IMG/VR virus record: IMGVR_UViG_3300038313_000260 | Direction: 5' to 3' (one strand) | Source of the DNA: a virus | Length of the DNA stretch: 44,538 nucleotides | Shown here: positions 10,891-16,880 of the stretch, one piece after another | Layout: every line of letters begins with the position of its first letter | Position numbering within the stretch: the stretch's first letter is position 1 | Notes under the pieces: model-generated | The model's database searches: none | What the model was told of the DNA's origin: nothing | What the model saw: the letters and a program-made list of their open reading frames with translations, nothing else | Translations under genes and position numbers: made by a program

Positions 10891-11124
10891 ATGAATGATG
10901 AACTAATAGAGCATAAGTTAGGAGTCCATGACACTAAACTTAATGACCACAGCAAGCGAATAGATGAATTAGAAAAGAGTAGAGCTGCTACAGATGTTAT
11001 GATGGAGAACCTGTGTGAAAAGCTTGAAGCACAAACAAAAAGTATAAATTGGTTAATAGGACTTATGGCAACTAGTTTGTTAGGGTTCTTTTTTTATGCA
11101 ATTCAGCACAATTTATTTAAATAG
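10891..11124 (+). CDS. xhlA: XhlA-like lysis-associated membrane protein
   Basis: 77 aa. N-terminal coiled coil with H-D-KLNDHSKRIDELE, and a C-terminal TM helix. Lies immediately upstream of holin and endolysin, as in PBSX-type cassettes. Confidence 0.7.
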   Translation: MNDELIEHKLGVHDTKLNDHSKRIDELEKSRAATDVMMENLCEKLEAQTKSINWLIGLMATSLLGFFFYAIQHNLFK

Positions 11125-11140
11125 AAAGGTAGGTGTGTAA

Positions 11141-11335
11141 ATGAAGTTTTTAGAGCAATTTCTACAAATAAAAAAGATAATAGCATTATTAACTACTATA
11201 GTATTTTGTATTTTAGCTTGTAGAGGAAATATAAGCAGCACAGAATTTTTAACTATATTTAGTATGGTTATAGCATTTTATTTTGGACAGTCTAGTGCTA
11301 GACAAGCGGCTAAAGAAAGTAAGGAGCAGGAATAA
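11141..11335 (+). CDS. Holin (64 aa, two TM helices, charged C-terminus)
   Basis: Hydrophobic segments IIALLTTIVFCILA and FLTIFSMVIAFYF, then the tail KESKEQE. Lies directly before the endolysin. Confidence 0.75.
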   Translation: MKFLEQFLQIKKIIALLTTIVFCILACRGNISSTEFLTIFSMVIAFYFGQSSARQAAKESKEQE

Positions 11336-11377
11336 AAGCCTGTCCTTTTTTTATTAAATTTATAGGAGGTAATGTAA

Positions 11378-12217
11378 GTGTTAAAAGGTATAGATGTAAG
11401 TATGCATAATGGTAACATTAATTTTAATGCTGTAAAGAATAATGATATTAATGTAGTCATTGTAAAGGCTACCGAAGGGGTTAATTATATAGATCCATTT
11501 TTAGGGCAACATTATAATGGAGCTAAAGCAGCAGGAATAAATATAGGTTTTTACCACTTCATGTCGGAGAAAACAAGCCCTACTCAACAAGCTACAGATT
11601 TTTGGAACGCTATTAAAGATAAACAATTTAATATAATTCCAGCTTTAGACATAGAAACCAATAATATGGGTAGGAGTGCTAAAGAAATATCGGATAGATG
11701 TATAGAATTCTTAACTAAATTTAAAGCTCTTAGTGGAATGAATTGTATGATTTATACAGGCGGTTATTTTGGAAGGGACAACTTAGATAGCAGGGTTAAA
11801 AAATATCCTGGTTGGATAGCTCATTATGGGGTAAATGCTCCTATGGAAACTGGATTTGAAGTTATAGGGCACCAGTATACGGAGCATGGAATAGTTAATG
11901 GCATTAATGGCAATGTAGACTTAAACAATTTCTCAGAAAAAATATTTTTAAATGCTAATAAAGAGGAGGAAAAGAAAGTGGAGAATTTAGTAGTATATAA
12001 TAATATAGCAGACCAAAGGGCGGCAGAGTACTTAGCAGACCATTTAAATTGCCCTACTATATTGGGAAGCAGACCGTTTAATTATAATTGCGTTAAGAAT
12101 GTAATAGGTGTAGGCGGTAAGAAAGAGCAATACACAACCTACCTAACGAAGCTTATATCTGGGAGAAGCCGCTTCGATACTATGCAGGCAGTGCTAAACT
12201 ATATAAATAAGAAGTAA
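11378..12217 (+). CDS. Endolysin: GH25 muramidase domain plus clostridial-type C-terminal domain
   Basis: N-terminus LKGIDVS-HNG-INF..V......VIVKATEG..Y.D......Y.GAKAAG...GFYHF is typical of GH25 lysozymes. AGGAGG RBS before the GTG start. Confidence 0.85.
   Translation: MLKGIDVSMHNGNINFNAVKNNDINVVIVKATEGVNYIDPFLGQHYNGAKAAGINIGFYHFMSEKTSPTQQATDFWNAIKDKQFNIIPALDIETNNMGRSAKEISDRCIEFLTKFKALSGMNCMIYTGGYFGRDNLDSRVKKYPGWIAHYGVNAPMETGFEVIGHQYTEHGIVNGINGNVDLNNFSEKIFLNANKEEEKKVENLVVYNNIADQRAAEYLADHLNCPTILGSRPFNYNCVKNVIGVGGKKEQYTTYLTKLISGRSRFDTMQAVLNYINKK
11964..11980 (+). promoter_or_regulatory. In-frame internal translation start candidate inside the endolysin (AGGAGG-8 nt-GTG)
   Basis: AGGAGG at 11964-11969 and GTG at 11978-11980, in the endolysin frame, exactly at the linker/C-terminal-domain boundary (..NKEEEKK-V-ENLVVY..). 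Confidence 0.45.
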
Positions 12218-13208: not shown

Positions 13209-14372
13209 TTATATAAATAAGCTATTTAATTTTTCAACCGCTGAAATTTTTTCTTTAGGCATTACATGAGTATATATATTAGCTGTGATTGAAATGTCAG
13301 AATGTCCTAGAAGGGTTTGAACAGTTTTAAGAGGGACATTTGCTTCAAATAATTTCGTGGCATAAGTATGACGCAAGGCATGAAATTTCTTGTGAGGTAT
13401 TTTAGCTTTTTTTAATAGATTTTTATAACTCATGAATAAATTTTTAGTGCTTAAAGGATTTCCAGTTGCAGTAGCGAAAATAAAATTATTATCCAAATAG
13501 GAAGGACCTGCTTTTATTTTTTCTAATTTTTGTTCTTTCTCATGTTCTTTTAAAACAGGAATTAAGGTTGAAGGAATAGGAACAATCCTATTAGATGTTT
13601 TGCTTTTAGGAGCCTGGGTTATAACTTCATGTCTTGAAGAACCATCAGATTCTATTATTTTTACACGTTTTATAGTTTTTTCAACCTTAACTTCCTTTAA
13701 GTCTGTGTCAATATCACTCCATTTTAATGCTAGGAGTTCTCCTTGCCTTAAACCAGTACCCAAAGCCATAAGTATTAAGCATTTCAATCTGTGCCCATTT
13801 AAAGCTTGTTTTAAAGTGTCTATTTCAGCATCAGTAAATATTGCAATTTCTGTGTCTTTAACATCTTTTTTACCTGGAATAATTATTTTTTTACCAGAAC
13901 AAGGATTCTTTAAAATATATCCTTCATCAACTGCGTAATTTAAAAATTGATTTAATAATTTATTTAGGCTTTTTATTGAACTACTGCTTTTACCATTATT
14001 GTAAAGATTATTATAGTATCTTTGAACTTGAAGGGATTTTAAGTCAGATAGTTTTAAGCTATATAATTCACTTTCTTTTATATAATTTCTGTATATTCCT
14101 TCGTAGCGTTCAAAAGAAGTTGGTTTAACTTTTATTTTCACAACTTCAAATAACCAAGTGTGCATTAAATTCCCTAATATTGTATCTTTATAATTTATAT
14201 TAAGACCATTTTTTATATTATTTATATATTCATCACGTTTATCCTCAGCTTCTGTTTTACTTTTACCATAGAATTCTTTCCTAATTAGCTTACCATTAGC
14301 ATCTCTCCCTATAGAGGTTGTTACTCTAAAATAATCATTACCGTTTTTGGTGTAGTTAGTCTTACGCGCCAT
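13209..14372 (-). CDS. int: Tyrosine integrase with N-terminal arm-type DNA-binding domain
   Basis: C-terminus HALRHTYATKL...LLGHSDISITANIYTHV (R-H-R-Y catalytic set). N-terminus MARKTNYTKNGNDYFRV...GK..RKEFYGKSKTEAE is typical of the AP2-like arm-binding domain. Adjacent to the attP candidate. Confidence 0.92.
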   Translation of the reverse strand: MARKTNYTKNGNDYFRVTTSIGRDANGKLIRKEFYGKSKTEAEDKRDEYINNIKNGLNINYKDTILGNLMHTWLFEVVKIKVKPTSFERYEGIYRNYIKESELYSLKLSDLKSLQVQRYYNNLYNNGKSSSSIKSLNKLLNQFLNYAVDEGYILKNPCSGKKIIIPGKKDVKDTEIAIFTDAEIDTLKQALNGHRLKCLILMALGTGLRQGELLALKWSDIDTDLKEVKVEKTIKRVKIIESDGSSRHEVITQAPKSKTSNRIVPIPSTLIPVLKEHEKEQKLEKIKAGPSYLDNNFIFATATGNPLSTKNLFMSYKNLLKKAKIPHKKFHALRHTYATKLFEANVPLKTVQTLLGHSDISITANIYTHVMPKEKISAVEKLNSLFI

Positions 14373-14536: not shown

Positions 14537-14797
14537 TTATTTAATTCTTCTCAAAATAACTTCTTCGTGTTTTGCAACTTCATGTTCAATTCTGTTAAGC
14601 TGTTCGCTATTTTGCTTATAGCCATCAAATAATGCATTAAGTTTTTCTCCATGTTCATTCTCAATTTTAATAACAGTTTTTTCAACATTAGCTAATCGAG
14701 AACTTAAATCATCTTGCCCCTTCTTTAAATTATCTTGACCATCTTTTAAGTCAGCATACATCTTCTCCATTAAGTCAAATATTTTTTCACTTTCCAT
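14537..14797 (-). CDS. Coiled-coil protein, paralog 1 of 3 (87 aa from the MESEK start)
   Basis: GGGAG-N10-ATG. N-terminus MESEKIFDLMEKMYADLK is shared with the next two genes. Heptad-rich. Confidence 0.65.
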   Translation of the reverse strand: MESEKIFDLMEKMYADLKDGQDNLKKGQDDLSSRLANVEKTVIKIENEHGEKLNALFDGYKQNSEQLNRIEHEVAKHEEVILRRIK

Positions 14798-14823
14798 TTT
14801 TATCATTCTCCCTTTCATAAATT

Positions 14824-15252
14824 TTAAACAGGTCTACGTTTCAATATCTCAATATCTACTTGATGATGCCCGATAATATCCTTCATTGCTTCAATAGTTT
14901 CCTTGCTTTCCTTTACATCTTGTGTCGTACTTTTTAAAGCTGTTTCAACTAAATCAAAATGTTCGTTAACCATAGCATCTGAATTCTTAAAAGAAAGTTC
15001 ATTTTGTTCTTTATGAGCAGTTTGGACTTCAGCAACAGTATTAATCTTATTTTCTATAGATTCAAGGGATACAGAGTTCTTTTTAACTTCTGTTTCAACA
15101 TTAGCTGATCGGGAACTTAAATCATCTTGACCTTTTTTTAAATTATCCTGACCATCTTTTAAACCATTGATGTCACCTTTTAAGTCATTGATGTCGCCTT
15201 TCAAGTCAGCATACATCTTTTCCATAAGCTCAAATATTTTTTCATTTTCCAT
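14824..15252 (-). CDS. Coiled-coil protein, paralog 2 of 3 (142 aa)
   Basis: GAGGAG RBS. N-terminus MENEKIFELMEKMYADLK. Contains a 21-bp tandem duplication encoding LKGDINDLKGDINGLK. About 100 nt are near-identical to paralog 1. Confidence 0.7.
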   Translation of the reverse strand: MENEKIFELMEKMYADLKGDINDLKGDINGLKDGQDNLKKGQDDLSSRSANVETEVKKNSVSLESIENKINTVAEVQTAHKEQNELSFKNSDAMVNEHFDLVETALKSTTQDVKESKETIEAMKDIIGHHQVDIEILKRRPV

Positions 15253-15296
15253 TTTATCAGTCTCCTCTACTTTTTATACTTATATCCAATTAGCTC

Positions 15297-15773
15297 TTAA
15301 CCTTGCATCTTTTCATCTAAGCGTCTTTCAAATTCAATAACTTTATTTTCGGTTTTTACTGCCTTAGAAGTAGTGGTATTAACGTCAATTTGTAAATCAT
15401 CTATTTTTTCACTTAGTTTATTAAAGTTTTGGCCTAATGTTTTAGATGTATTGCTGACGGCAAGCTCTATAACATCAAGTCTGTCATTTATACTTCTCTT
15501 ATCATCATTATTATTGCGCCCTATTTGGCTCCTGAATGATTCTTGACCTTCTGCAAGTAATTTTACATTGCTATCAACTTTTTCAAGTAATATAGAGCTT
15601 TTAGCAGTATCAGCTTTTAAGTCTTTAACATTACTTTCAACATTGCTGAGCCTGTTATTCATTTTCTGCATTTCTGAATACATGTTATCCATTCTTGAAG
15701 TCATTTTGTCGAACTTGTTGTTCATTTCAGAATACATTTTAGACATTAAATCAAAAGTCTTATCGCTTTCCAT
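15297..15773 (-). CDS. Coiled-coil protein, paralog 3 of 3 (158 aa from the MESDK start)
   Basis: AAGGAG-N10-ATG. N-terminus MESDKTFDLMSKMYSEM. More diverged than the other two. Confidence 0.65.
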   Translation of the reverse strand: MESDKTFDLMSKMYSEMNNKFDKMTSRMDNMYSEMQKMNNRLSNVESNVKDLKADTAKSSILLEKVDSNVKLLAEGQESFRSQIGRNNNDDKRSINDRLDVIELAVSNTSKTLGQNFNKLSEKIDDLQIDVNTTTSKAVKTENKVIEFERRLDEKMQG

Positions 15774-15822
15774 CTTTATCAATCTCCTTTTCATTTAAGA
15801 TATTTATATTAACCTTAATGGG

Positions 15823-16287
15823 TTAAAACTTTTTTATAATCCCAAAATGGGGTTCGAACATTACTATGTAATTATCTATTTCAAAGTAGGCGCCATACTT
15901 TTCTCTATAATGCTGAATTGCTTCCTCTAAAAATTCCTCTGTAACTTCTAGGTATTCAGCTAATTCACATCTATTTCTGGCACCACTATTATAGGCATTT
16001 ACTATGTCAATAATACCTACTAATTTTTCATAACCCCAGTTGCGAGCTTTCTTCTCCTGTTTTACATTTTCAATTTTGTTTTGGTTGGTAATATTACCTA
16101 CAGTTTTATTATAATGCCCTAATTCTTCCGCTAGAATAACGTGTTTTTGTTTATCAAGTAAATTTCTATTTATTAATACTTTATTATTAGAGTAATAGCC
16201 ACATTCCTCACAATCCCCAAAATCTATCTCTTTAATTTTTATCTTATGTTTTTCAGCTTCAACTAATAAACTTTCGTATTTTGTCAT
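15823..16287 (-). CDS. ImmA/IrrE-like (M78-type) peptidase homolog with variant EELGH motif
   Basis: VILAEELGHY sits where the family has HExxH. Size is about 150 aa. Lies directly downstream of the XRE repressor in the same operon, the ImmR/ImmA arrangement. Confidence 0.7.
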   Translation of the reverse strand: MTKYESLLVEAEKHKIKIKEIDFGDCEECGYYSNNKVLINRNLLDKQKHVILAEELGHYNKTVGNITNQNKIENVKQEKKARNWGYEKLVGIIDIVNAYNSGARNRCELAEYLEVTEEFLEEAIQHYREKYGAYFEIDNYIVMFEPHFGIIKKF

Positions 16288-16304: not shown

Positions 16305-16733
16305 TTATTCCTCATCCATCTCTTTAAAAATCTCTTTTGCTTTATTTAATCTTTCTTTAGATTTTTCAGGGGATAATCCATCATCATGTGCTGCTAAGGT
16401 ATAAATTTCATTTTCTTCTTGTGTATATTTATTTATTTCAGTTAATTCAGATACTCTTTTGATAGCTTCATCTTTACCGGTTTCATTTAGTTTATTGAAG
16501 TTTGATATTAATGTTGTTTCTTTTTTATCTTTAATTTCAATGTCATCATCAAAATCGTCAAGTGTGCACCCTAATACTTTTGATAAAGCTTTTAGCGTTT
16601 CTAATTTAGGGTCTTTGGTAGTTCTATTTAATATTTTGTTTAAAGTTCCCAATGGCACTCCAGACATTTCGGAAAGTTCCTTTGATGTAAGATTCTTTTT
16701 CTTTTTTAATTCTTCTATAATTTCTAGTCCCAT
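16305..16733 (-). CDS. CI-like XRE-family repressor
   Basis: N-terminal HTH LTSKELSEMSGVPLGTLNKILNRTT. Divergent from the Cro-like gene. AGGGAG RBS. Confidence 0.85.
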   Translation of the reverse strand: MGLEIIEELKKKKNLTSKELSEMSGVPLGTLNKILNRTTKDPKLETLKALSKVLGCTLDDFDDDIEIKDKKETTLISNFNKLNETGKDEAIKRVSELTEINKYTQEENEIYTLAAHDDGLSPEKSKERLNKAKEIFKEMDEE

Positions 16734-16754: not shown

Positions 16755-16880
16755 ATTATATAACGGTAATATTTTACCGTCAACTATTATTTTACCGTTA
16801 AATATAAAAATATTTTAAAAAAGGCATTGACTTTTACCGTTGAAGGGTATATTATATGATTAAACAAACCGTTAATGGTA
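16755..16880. promoter_or_regulatory. Lysis-lysogeny switch: divergent sigma-A promoters with ACGGTAA/TTACCGT operator sites
   Basis: Leftward promoter TTGACG-17-TATAAT (plus-strand coordinates 16778-16783 and 16755-16760), with the palindrome ACGGTAA-N4-TTACCGT (16763-16780) in its spacer. Rightward promoter TTGACT (16827-16832)-17-TATTAT (16850-16855), with TTACCGT (16834-16840) in its spacer. Further half-sites at 16792-16798 and 16868-16879. Confidence 0.7.

What the first reader, a model, noticed from the sequence alone, without database searches (positions are those of the whole stretch)
14537..15794. Array of three paralogous coiled-coil genes inside the lysogeny operon
Three consecutive minus-strand genes lie between int and the ImmA/CI pair. 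They share the N-terminus ME(S/N)(E/D)K(I/T)F(D/E)LM(E/S)KMY(A/S)(D/E) and a near-identical translation initiation region (GGAG-A-nTGATAAA-ATGGAAA). Paralogs 1 and 2 keep about 100 nt of near-identity. Paralog 2 additionally contains a 21-bp tandem duplication (LKGDINDLKGDINGLK). The C-terminal halves differ completely. They have no TM segment and no enzymatic motif; all three are heptad-rich. Their orientation implies expression in the lysogen. A diversifying family of coiled-coil proteins at the int-cI junction is the classical position for superinfection exclusion or defence genes, but I do not recognise the family.
Basis: partly seen in the sequence, partly recalled or inferred. Interest (0 to 1): 0.62.

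Follow-up and report, generated by a model that had tools for sequence, protein, structure and literature searches.

The report
Prophage trio of coiled-coil rod genes
Three small neighbouring genes in the lysogeny operon of a Clostridium phage encode single-helix rod proteins from a large, uncharacterised Clostridia family with a fixed N-terminal motif and a length-variable 7-residue repeat array; their function is still unknown.

Summary
Three minus-strand genes (86, 142 and 158 aa) lie between the tyrosine integrase and the ImmA/CI pair. They share a ribosome-binding region and an N-terminal motif. Paralogs 1 and 2 share a 134-nt block at 93% identity, broken by a 42-nt (two-heptad) indel.

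New here: they belong to an unnamed Clostridia family (2,666 cluster representatives at E<=1e-3, 549 at E<=1e-10). No Pfam, NCBIfam or PADLOC model covers it, only PHROGs of unknown function. Members have an ME(D/N)KxFELLxKMY head, an in-frame 21/42-nt tandem array (2-11 copies in 36 of 66 genes) and exchangeable C-terminal modules. AlphaFold2 predicts one uninterrupted helix (pLDDT 94).

Paralogs 2 and 3 share a homologous core, so "C-terminal halves differ completely" is only partly right.

About ten prophage lineages carry such genes inside the cI-(immA)-int operon. The commonest neighbour elsewhere is a site-specific recombinase. Some copies sit on plasmids. Most copies are stand-alone chromosomal genes with strong sigma-A-type promoters, found in 71 of 297 related genomes.

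Nothing supports or excludes a defence role. Best guess: lysogen-expressed, non-enzymatic binding rods.

The parts
14537..14797 (-). par1, 86 aa: N-motif MESEKIFDLMEKMYADL, two to three heptads, then an 'HGEKLNALFDGYKQNSEQLNRIEHEVAKHEEVILRRIK' core and tail
   Evidence: phrog_15901, 2e-32; single helix 2-85, pLDDT 93.9
14824..15252 (-). par2, 142 aa: N-motif, heptad array (LKGDIND LKGDING LKDGQDN LKKGQDD), 'KNSxxLE...AEVQTAHKEQ' core, 'DIEILKRRPV' tail
   Evidence: phrog_15040, 5e-13; single helix 2-139, pLDDT 93.9
15297..15773 (-). par3, 158 aa: N-motif MESDKTFDLMSKMYSEM, degenerate M-x6 heptads, 'KSSILLEKVDSNVKLLAEGQESF' core homologous to that of par2, and a third type of C-terminal module (...IDDLQIDVNTTTSKAVKTENKVIEFERRLDEKMQG)
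   Evidence: (phrog_15040, 2e-16)
15093..15273 (-). 5' block of par2 (SD plus first ~55 codons) that is 93% identical to the par1 block apart from a 42-nt insertion
14680..14815 (-). matching 5' block of par1 (SD plus first ~40 codons)
15117..15208 (-). in-frame 21-nt tandem repeats of par2 (heptad array)
   Evidence: period 21; 2.1-2.4 copies; 80-91% match
14704..14753 (-). weaker 21-nt tandem repeat of par1
   Evidence: period 21, 2.4 copies, 75% match
15823..16287 (-). immA-like Peptidase_M78 gene, immediately upstream in the same operon
   Evidence: PF06114, 8e-7
16305..16733 (-). cI-like HTH_3 repressor, first gene of the operon
   Evidence: PF01381, 9e-13
16755..16783 (-). best sigma-70-like promoter match on the minus strand (TTGACG-17-TATAAT), upstream of cI; presumed operon promoter
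   Evidence: consensus match only
13209..14372 (-). tyrosine integrase, last gene of the run
   Evidence: PF00589, 2e-33

Best explanation
The three genes are accessory cargo of the prophage's cI-immA-...-int operon. They encode cytoplasmic, non-enzymatic coiled-coil rods of an unnamed Clostridia-wide family.

Each protein is one long helix built from three parts:
- a constant, strongly amphipathic N-terminal head (ME-x-x-K-x-F-E/D-L-L/M-x-K-M-Y);
- a spacer of heptads encoded by an in-frame 21-nt tandem repeat that expands and contracts;
- an exchangeable C-terminal module.

Shown: paralogy, architecture, family size, repeat dynamics, recurrent placement in lysogeny operons and next to site-specific recombinases, and presence on plasmids and chromosomes.

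Inferred: the genes are co-transcribed with the repressor in the lysogen. The proteins oligomerise as parallel coiled coils, dock through the shared head onto one common partner (or onto each other or a host homologue), and use their different C-terminal modules to bind different targets. They would therefore act stoichiometrically, by sequestering or blocking a protein.

The most likely benefit is to the resident element, either protection against competing phages or mobile elements, or stabilisation of the lysogen. That last step is the weakest.
For: - Paralogy and shared 5' block.
- Single-helix models at pLDDT 94. No TM segment.
- Family size: 2,666 cluster representatives at E<=1e-3 and 549 at E<=1e-10. 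Nearly all are 78-193 aa, and most matches start at about residue 1 of the protein. No domain fusions.
- The head is the most conserved part: M13 and Y14 invariant; F7, L9 and K12 >=90%.
- 36 of 66 family genes carry period-21/42 DNA arrays starting 45-110 nt into the gene, with 2-11 copies at up to 100% match.
- Near-identical alleles differ only in copy number: P0021/22/23, P0037/43/46, and L019 versus L021.
- C-terminal modules recombine with the same heads.
- About ten prophage lineages place a member inside cI-(immA)-int. It sits between cI and immA in L009 and L099, and after immA in the window, L012, L020/L101, L047 and the C. tetani phages. In L010 and L100 it follows cI, with no immA detected beside it. 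In L076 two members follow cI and precede a 181-aa gene and int.
- The commonest neighbour family is a large serine recombinase (14 of 73 loci, always on the same strand), then tyrosine integrase (6 loci).
- Members also occur on Clostridium plasmids.
- Patchy distribution: 71 of 297 genomes of the family of C. caldaquaticum, 1-3 matches each; 9 matches, roughly seven genes, in one Ruminiclostridium genome.
- Operon layout without an internal terminator-like site.
- The trio is kept intact in free and integrated copies of this phage in metagenomes.
Against:
- No partner, oligomeric state or phenotype is known.
- PADLOC, Pfam and NCBIfam give only coiled-coil noise below cut-offs. PDB profile and fold searches give nothing specific.
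- About three quarters of the sampled loci have no recombinase, cI or immA within 6 kb. They sit among housekeeping genes (topoisomerase, gyrA, alaS, radical SAM, HAD) and have their own TRTGnTATAAT-type promoters. The ancestral role may therefore be cellular rather than phage-related.
- Defence genes are not clearly enriched beside them.
- The sample of loci was seeded with N-motif patterns and is biased.
Confidence: 0.35

Rival explanations
1. Host-physiology modulators by mimicry. The family is primarily a cellular coiled-coil protein of Clostridia, for example a cytoskeletal or regulatory adaptor. The prophage copies co-assemble with, or compete against, the chromosomal homologue through the shared head, and so change a host process in the lysogen (growth, division, sporulation or stress response).
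For: - Most members are stand-alone chromosomal genes with strong sigma-A-type extended -10 promoters and short leaders, set among housekeeping genes.
- One lineage has members flanking cotJA/cotJB and sigK.
- The head is conserved between the phage and chromosomal branches.
Against: - The distribution is patchy (24% of sampled related genomes), and copies occur on plasmids and phages. This fits an accessory gene better than a core cellular one.
- There is no conserved synteny beyond close relatives.
- It is not known whether the host of this phage has a chromosomal copy, because no genome is held.
Confidence: 0.25
2. Accessory factors of the lysogeny switch or of site-specific recombination. 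The rods would modulate ImmA/CI (for example by gating repressor cleavage) or the integrase (a directionality- or stability-type cofactor). This would explain why they sit inside the cI-immA-int operon and next to recombinases.
For: - Members lie between cI and immA with 5-30 nt gaps in L009 and L099.
- Recombinase is the commonest neighbour, and the large serine recombinases are always on the same strand.
- Known directionality factors for serine recombinases are small, unrelated, often acidic proteins. One example is CD1234 (72 aa, pI 5.5, 'no significant similarity', PMC5025042). par1-3 have pI 4.9-5.4.
Against: - The same family accompanies both tyrosine and serine recombinases, and in some prophages there is no immA.
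- About 75% of loci have none of these partners.
- A directionality factor expressed with the repressor would destabilise lysogeny.
- One to three divergent copies per phage is odd for a dedicated cofactor.
Confidence: 0.1
3. Functionally neutral or selfish hitch-hiking cargo. The repeat-prone small ORFs would persist in a permissive slot and be shuffled by recombination at their conserved 5' ends, with no role in the phage life cycle.
For: - Abrupt mosaic boundaries and a 93% identical 5' block.
- A variant with an 11-aa deletion in par3 exists (P0029).
- Copy number per prophage varies from 1 to 3.
Against: - The head and core motifs are strongly conserved across thousands of clusters.
- All repeat changes are in frame.
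- The trio is identical in layout in all ten contigs shown of the 22 that carry par1.
- The structure models are confident.
All of this points to purifying selection on a working protein.
Confidence: 0.1

Closest known systems
PHROGs 15901, 5553, 15040, 12015 and 34579 (phage protein clusters, function unknown)
   Same: par1 matches phrog_15901 end to end (2e-32). par2 and par3 match phrog_15040 (5e-13, 2e-16). 42 and 39 of 69 family members match phrog_15901 and phrog_5553.
   Different: These are unannotated clusters, not a described family. They split one superfamily by C-terminal module and say nothing about function.
Hypothetical proteins of Clostridium tetani phages phiCT453A, phiCT9441A, phiCT19406A and phiCTC2A (e.g. 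phiCT453A_02 and _09)
   Same: They are the only close relatives among 50,697 phage records. A par1-type gene (57-64% identity) lies directly upstream of the recombinase in the cI-immA operon. A par3/par2-type gene lies as a lysogeny-strand insert in the early region.
   Different: The recombinase there is a large serine recombinase, not a tyrosine integrase. There is one copy per site rather than a tandem trio. A DUF948-like coiled-coil gene sits beside it. All are annotated hypothetical.
Superinfection-exclusion genes of the int-repressor slot (Ltp of S. thermophilus TP-J34; Sie2009 of lactococcal phages) - from general knowledge
   Different: Those are a lipoprotein and membrane proteins acting at the cell envelope. 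par1-3 have no signal peptide or TM segment and show no sequence similarity to them.
Generic coiled-coil Pfam families XhlA (PF10779), DUF1664 (PF07889), DUF7310 (PF23991), FlaC_arch (PF05377)
   Same: Weak, repeat-driven matches in a minority of members, at most 14 of 69.
   Different: The window's own proteins and those tabulated individually all score below the gathering cut-offs for these families. No single family is hit consistently. XhlA has a C-terminal TM segment, and the window's real XhlA homologue is at 10891-11124 in the lysis cassette.
Recombination directionality factors of large serine recombinases (e.g. CD1234 of skinCd, PMC5025042)
   Same: Small, acidic, database-orphan proteins encoded near a recombinase that carries its own coiled-coil motif.
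   Different: The integrase here is a tyrosine recombinase. The genes are in the repressor operon. No sequence comparison with CD1234 could be made.
Borrelia Bdr proteins (recalled from memory; not tested)
   Same: A paralogous family of small proteins on prophage-like replicons, with a central tandem repeat whose copy number varies.
   Different: Bdr proteins have 11-residue repeats and a C-terminal membrane anchor. This is an analogy only, with no homology implied.

Membership tests
Unnamed Clostridia rod family (N-motif / heptad array / C-module; PHROG 15901-5553-15040 group) | N-terminal motif M-E-x-x-K-x-F-[ED]-L-[LM]-x-K-M-Y at residue 1 | tested here: met
   All three genes carry it. 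M13 and Y14 are invariant, and F7, L9 and K12 are >=90% conserved in 69 members.
Unnamed Clostridia rod family (N-motif / heptad array / C-module; PHROG 15901-5553-15040 group) | In-frame 21/42-nt tandem repeat directly after the motif | tested here: met
   par2 and par1 have TRF arrays. par3 has only degenerate protein-level heptads (MNNKFDK MTSRMDN MYSEMQK). 36 of 66 relatives have such arrays.
Unnamed Clostridia rod family (N-motif / heptad array / C-module; PHROG 15901-5553-15040 group) | One of the recurrent cores (ALFDGYKQ type or KNSxxLE...AE.Q type) and profile match | tested here: met
   par1 matches the A7 profile at 6e-48, par2 the A6 profile at 1.5e-47, and par3 the A5 profile at 3e-51. 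All three cross-match the other profiles. Each is itself a row of its best profile, so the cross-matches and the PHROG hits are the independent evidence.
Unnamed Clostridia rod family (N-motif / heptad array / C-module; PHROG 15901-5553-15040 group) | Small stand-alone protein predicted as one continuous helix | tested here: met
   AF2 predicts helix 2-139 for par2 and 2-85 for par1, pLDDT 93.9. Relatives are 78-193 aa without fusions.
Superinfection-exclusion proteins of the int-repressor slot (Ltp / Sie2009 type) | Encoded between integrase and repressor on the lysogeny strand | tested here: met
Superinfection-exclusion proteins of the int-repressor slot (Ltp / Sie2009 type) | Signal peptide/lipobox or transmembrane anchor | tested here: not met
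   Maximum 19-residue hydropathy is <=0.34. The proteins are acidic, all-helical rods.
Superinfection-exclusion proteins of the int-repressor slot (Ltp / Sie2009 type) | Blocks infection by other phages | not testable with these tools
   Needs plaque assays.
Catalogued anti-phage defence systems (PADLOC-DB 2.0) | Significant match to a defence-protein model | tested here: not met
   Only coiled-coil-region hits to JetC, LmuB, ZorA and DruC, at E 6e-5 to 0.5.
XhlA (PF10779) | Score above the Pfam gathering cut-off and a C-terminal TM helix | tested here: not met
   par2 scores 14.3 bits against a cut-off of 34.7. There is no TM segment.
Recombination directionality factor of a large serine recombinase | Partnered with a serine recombinase and expressed when excision is wanted | tested here: not met
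   The window's integrase is PF00589 tyrosine type. The genes lie in the repressor operon. Timing of expression was not testable.

The most novel reading that the evidence does not exclude
The family is a previously unrecognised modular 'adaptor rod' system of Clostridia and their mobile elements. A universal N-terminal docking helix would plug into one conserved cellular machine. A slippage-tunable heptad spacer would set reach. Swappable C-terminal modules would set target specificity. Prophages would carry arrays of divergent copies in the repressor operon to widen the range of competing phages or plasmids they sense or block, or of host processes they control. That would make it a new effector-less, binding-based immunity or lysogeny-control principle.
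Probability: 0.15. Interest if true: 0.8.

Novelty: new variant of a known kind. Interest (0 to 1): 0.45.

Why it matters
Genes expressed with the repressor are where temperate phages keep functions that pay for lysogeny. Those of Clostridium phages are almost unexplored.

This finding ties a phage gene trio to a sizeable family that no curated database covers. The family is easy to recognise (head motif plus dynamic heptad array) and recurs inside cI-immA-int operons, beside recombinases and on plasmids.

If the rods turn out to block other phages or to tune induction or sporulation, that would add a non-enzymatic, length-tunable mechanism to prophage biology. It would also annotate thousands of 'hypothetical' genes in industrial and gut Clostridia. 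If they do nothing measurable, they remain a clean example of repeat-driven length variation in a cytoplasmic protein.

Tried and rejected
- **Curated family, structure and literature searches.** Pfam, NCBIfam and PADLOC scans of the three proteins and of 69 relatives gave only sub-threshold coiled-coil matches. A PDB profile search gave only trimeric coiled-coil noise such as haemagglutinin HA2. A Foldseek search with the par1 model gave no hit. Four literature searches found nothing on the family.
- **Phage DNA search.** A megablast of the module against 50,697 phage records found no match.
- **Defence-island test.** PADLOC on 70 upstream and 70 downstream neighbours found a few defence-type hits. 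These were one JetC3, three DpdF-like, one Snf2/DrmD-like, and one each of PDC-S03 and mad3 on both sides. There was no clear enrichment.
- **ParM link.** A plasmid copy lies upstream of parM. However, the 387-aa neighbour of its chromosomal orthologue is unrelated to ParM. Rejected.
- **RDF idea.** Considered because of the serine-recombinase adjacency and the interrupted sigK locus. Judged unlikely because the window has a tyrosine integrase and the genes sit in the repressor operon.
- **Sporulation promoter idea.** The upstream motifs are TRTGnTATAAT extended -10 sites of the sigma-A type, not sigma-E or sigma-K.
- **BMC encapsulation peptide and membrane-targeting helix.** Both were considered for the head and set aside. 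The loci are not microcompartment loci, and the head carries net negative charge.
- **Pooled-alignment locus search.** The first related-loci run with the pooled alignment failed for lack of a conserved stretch.
Full report
**1. Observation**

The window region holds three consecutive minus-strand genes:
- par1: 14537-14797, 86 aa.
- par2: 14824-15252, 142 aa.
- par3: 15297-15773, 158 aa.

They lie between a tyrosine integrase (13209-14372; PF00589, 2e-33) and an ImmA-like Peptidase_M78 gene (15823-16287) preceded by a CI-like HTH_3 repressor (16305-16733).

All three begin ME(S/N)(E/D)K(I/T)F(D/E)LM(E/S)KMY. Each is preceded by GGAG-N3-4-GATAAA(A/G)-ATG. Pairwise BLASTP E-values are 2e-20 (par1/par2), 4e-11 (par2/par3) and 6e-9 (par1/par3).

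par1 and par2 share 125 of 134 ungapped nucleotides (93.3%), from the Shine-Dalgarno sequence to ...AATGTTGAAA. par2 has 42 extra nucleotides (two heptads) inside this block. Similarity stops abruptly, as at a recombination joint.

TRF reports 21-nt tandem arrays in par2 (15117-15208) and a weaker one in par1 (14704-14753).

The proteins are acidic (pI 4.9-5.4) and have no Cys or Trp. They have no hydrophobic segment, with a maximum 19-residue hydropathy of <=0.34. AlphaFold2 with family alignments predicts a single uninterrupted helix for par2 (residues 2-139) and par1 (2-85), both at mean pLDDT 93.9.

par2 and par3 are homologous well beyond the N-terminus. They align over about 113 residues and share the core KNSxxLE...N.K.LAE.Q...Q. 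Only par1 has a different core (IENEHGxKLxALFDGYKQNSE...KHEEVIxRRxK).

**2. What family this is**

Pfam, NCBIfam and PADLOC give only sub-threshold coiled-coil matches. A scan of 69 relatives shows no Pfam family hit by more than 14 of them.

PHROGs does hold the proteins, in clusters of unknown function. These are phrog_15901 (par1, 2e-32), phrog_15040 (par2 and par3), phrog_34579 and phrog_5553. Of the 69 relatives, 42 match phrog_15901 and 39 match phrog_5553.

Word-indexed searches found few close relatives: 23 for par2 and 33 for par3, all 'hypothetical'. A pattern-seeded scan of one genome per species returned 75 loci, almost all Clostridia.

A profile of 69 members was searched against 1.84 billion cluster representatives. 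It found 2,666 proteins at E<=1e-3 and 549 at E<=1e-10. The best 150 are nearly all 78-193 aa. Most matches begin at about residue 1 of the protein; in about a fifth the best-scoring stretch lies further in. There are no domain fusions. Two giant proteins in the list are probably coiled-coil noise. A search with a typical chromosomal member gave 291 relatives, and no source gives any of them a meaningful name: the NCBI names shown read 'hypothetical' and the JGI labels are disparate automatic ones.

**3. Anatomy of the family**

Members have three parts:
- **Head.** ME(D/N)K(T/I)FELL(T/S)KMY(S/G)E(F/M). M13 and Y14 (par1 numbering) are invariant. F7, L9 and K12 are >=90% conserved.
- **Heptad array.** It varies in unit sequence and number. 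Examples are RLDGVEN x about 11 in L038, KIGTIEG x about 10 in L019 and DISGVKN x about 11 in L030.
- **Core plus tail.** These occur in a few recurrent types: ALFDGYKQ...VEIRVIKGGK; HGxKLDALFDGYKQ...KHEEVIxRRVK; KNSxxLE...AEVQTAHKEQ...DIxILKRRPV; ...IQDHLKIIK; ...IDDLQIDVN...VIEFERRL.

The same head is found with different cores and tails, so modules are shuffled.

At the DNA level, 36 of 66 genes carry a period-21 or period-42 tandem array. The arrays begin 45-110 nt into the gene and have 2-11 copies at up to 100% match.

Near-identical alleles differ only in copy number. Examples are P0021/P0022/P0023 (79, 93 and 100 aa) and P0043/P0037/P0046/L011 (130, 151, 165 and 179 aa). The two R. cellobioparum subspecies also differ, with TRF counts of 10.4 versus 6.5 copies.

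**4. Where the genes live**

*Prophage lysogeny operons.* Among 50,697 phage records, only four C. tetani phages have close homologues. Each has a par1-type gene directly upstream of a large serine recombinase, after cI, immA and a DUF948-like gene. Each also has a par3/par2-type gene on the lysogeny strand within the early region. IMG/VR added nine loci, four of them these same C. tetani-type prophages.

Together with genome loci, about ten prophage lineages carry a member inside the repressor-to-integrase operon:
- cI-CC-immA-int: L007/L009 and L099.
- cI-immA-CC(-CC)-int or serine recombinase: the window, L012, L020/L101, L047 and the C. tetani phages.
- cI-CC-int: L010 and L100.
- cI-CC-CC-x-int: L076.

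*Beside recombinases.* Clustering all neighbours within four genes shows that the commonest neighbour family is a large serine recombinase (14 of 73 loci, always on the same strand). Tyrosine integrases (6 loci), HTH regulators (6 loci) and ImmA (3 loci) also recur. 17 of 73 loci have a recombinase within three genes.

*Plasmids.* Members occur on small Clostridium plasmids of C. estertheticum, C. carboxidivorans, C. kluyveri and C. tetani.

*Chromosomes.* About three quarters of the sampled loci show no recombinase, cI or immA within 6 kb. They are flanked by ordinary genes such as topoisomerase, gyrA, alaS, radical-SAM and HAD enzymes. Most of these have their own TRTGnTATAAT or TGATAAAAT extended -10 element 20-30 nt before the start codon, which suggests vegetative sigma-A transcription.

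*Distribution.* 71 of 297 genomes of the family of C. caldaquaticum have a match at E<=1e-6, usually 1-3 matches. One Ruminiclostridium genome has 9 matches, roughly seven genes, at E<=1e-4. The distribution is patchy, as for accessory genes.

The locus sample was seeded with head-motif patterns and is biased, so these proportions are rough.

**5. This phage**

The same phage occurs in fermentation metagenomes as a free or circular form (int next to the lysin) and as an integrated form (int next to a host branched-chain amino-acid transporter gene). In every place shown that is long enough to include all three genes, the trio has the same layout. One contig carries a par3 allele lacking 11 residues near the C-terminus.

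Intergenic gaps in cI-immA-par3-par2-par1 are 17, 49, 44 and 26 nt, followed by 164 nt before int. The best minus-strand sigma-70-like site (TTGACG-17-TATAAT, 16783-16755) lies upstream of cI. No terminator-like site lies on that strand before the end of int.

**6. How it most likely works**

Shown: the proteins are small, soluble, acidic, single-helix rods with heptad periodicity, a constant head, a length-variable spacer and exchangeable ends.

Inferred:
- They form parallel coiled-coil oligomers. The repeat units typically place L/I/M/F and V/I at a and d, and an R/K...E pair at g and e.
- The head has a hydrophobic face (F, L, L, M, Y, F over about 160 degrees) that is wider than a simple a/d stripe, and it carries net negative charge. 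It is probably a protein-protein docking or capping element rather than a membrane anchor.
- The different C-terminal modules bind different targets.

A trio of divergent copies sharing one head then looks like three specificities plugged into one partner, or a hetero-oligomer.

With no catalytic domain, action would be stoichiometric, by sequestration or blocking. Placement with the repressor points to a function needed in the lysogen.

I rank the possible roles as follows:
- Protection or competition for the resident element comes first. The family is accessory, borne by mobile elements, multi-copy and fast-changing.
- Host modulation by mimicry of the chromosomal homologue comes second.
- A role in the switch or in recombination comes third.

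None of these is demonstrated. The defence reading has no support from PADLOC or from the neighbours of chromosomal members.

**7. Comparison with known systems**

The closest entries are unannotated PHROG clusters and hypothetical proteins of C. tetani phages.

The genes share the slot of Ltp/Sie2009-type exclusion genes but lack their defining membrane anchor. They do not meet the thresholds of XhlA or other coiled-coil Pfam families. They do not fit a directionality factor, because the integrase is a tyrosine recombinase and the genes sit in the repressor operon.

The family as described here (head motif, dynamic heptad array, modular tails, recombinase-proximal placement) was not found described in the literature searched.

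An earlier first-reader note of this scan (e1-4885567) flagged one chromosomal member, with a VENRLG array next to an SMC-like cassette, in another genome. It had no follow-up. That member appears to correspond to L039, whose upstream neighbour is presumably the single JetC3-type hit.

**8. Verdict**

The trio is a real, conserved member set of an uncharacterised Clostridia rod-protein family that recurs in prophage lysogeny operons. Function is unknown. The most likely mode of action is non-enzymatic binding in the lysogen.

Interest is moderate. The architecture and distribution are new and testable, but there is no functional evidence yet.

Noticed in passing
L019:6397-6840 (also L021, L042, L063; intact in L029): In Ruminiclostridium-like genomes, family members flank cotJA/cotJB and lie next to a 147-aa ORF. 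That ORF is the 5' part of a sigK-like sigma factor (Sigma70_r2 only, ending ...ARCIENAI). A 540-aa large serine recombinase sits about 2 kb upstream. L029 has a 240-aa ORF of the same neighbour cluster at that position, probably the intact sigma gene. This looks like a skin-type intervening element in sigK.
   Followed up: partly
upstream 100 nt of about 60 loci, e.g. L018:5895-5994, L059:860-959: Stand-alone family members almost always have a TRTGnTATAAT or TGATAAAAT extended -10 element 20-30 nt before the start codon. A group of MAGs also shares a conserved ~70-nt upstream block (TTGACnGAAnTCCTnTAGTAnTTT...TGATAAAAT).
   Followed up: partly
window 14798-14806, 15253-15261, 15774-15783: The spacer between SD and ATG in all three genes reads TGATAAA(A/G)(A)ATG. 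In par1 and par2 this forms a TGnTAAAAT extended -10-like string ending at or overlapping the start codon. This may be coincidence or a trace of the promoters seen in stand-alone relatives.
   Followed up: no
L001:4950-5366 (phiCT453A_09) and L002:4902-5366: C. tetani phages carry a second family member as a reverse-oriented insert among early lytic genes, in addition to the copy beside the recombinase.
   Followed up: partly
L096:797-1240 (P0029): A metagenomic copy of the same phage has a par3 allele lacking 11 residues (VIEFERRLDEK) near the C-terminus.
   Followed up: no
L003:1-3989: A par2-type chromosomal homologue (P0008) lies downstream of a protein of at least 1,476 aa with four or more AAA ATPase domains and three small unknown genes, near a sortase locus.
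   Followed up: no
L104:3953-6084 (pCM034-33) and L105:1180-4164 (p19): Plasmid-borne family members lie close to partition genes (ParM/StbA, or ParA plus an RHH protein). The ParM link is not conserved in the chromosomal orthologue.
   Followed up: yes
window 10891-12217: The lysis cassette comprises an XhlA-like coiled-coil/TM protein (10891-11124), a small holin-like ORF (11141-11335) and a GH25 endolysin (11378-12217). The XhlA gene is the window's true XhlA homologue and is unrelated to the trio.
   Followed up: partly
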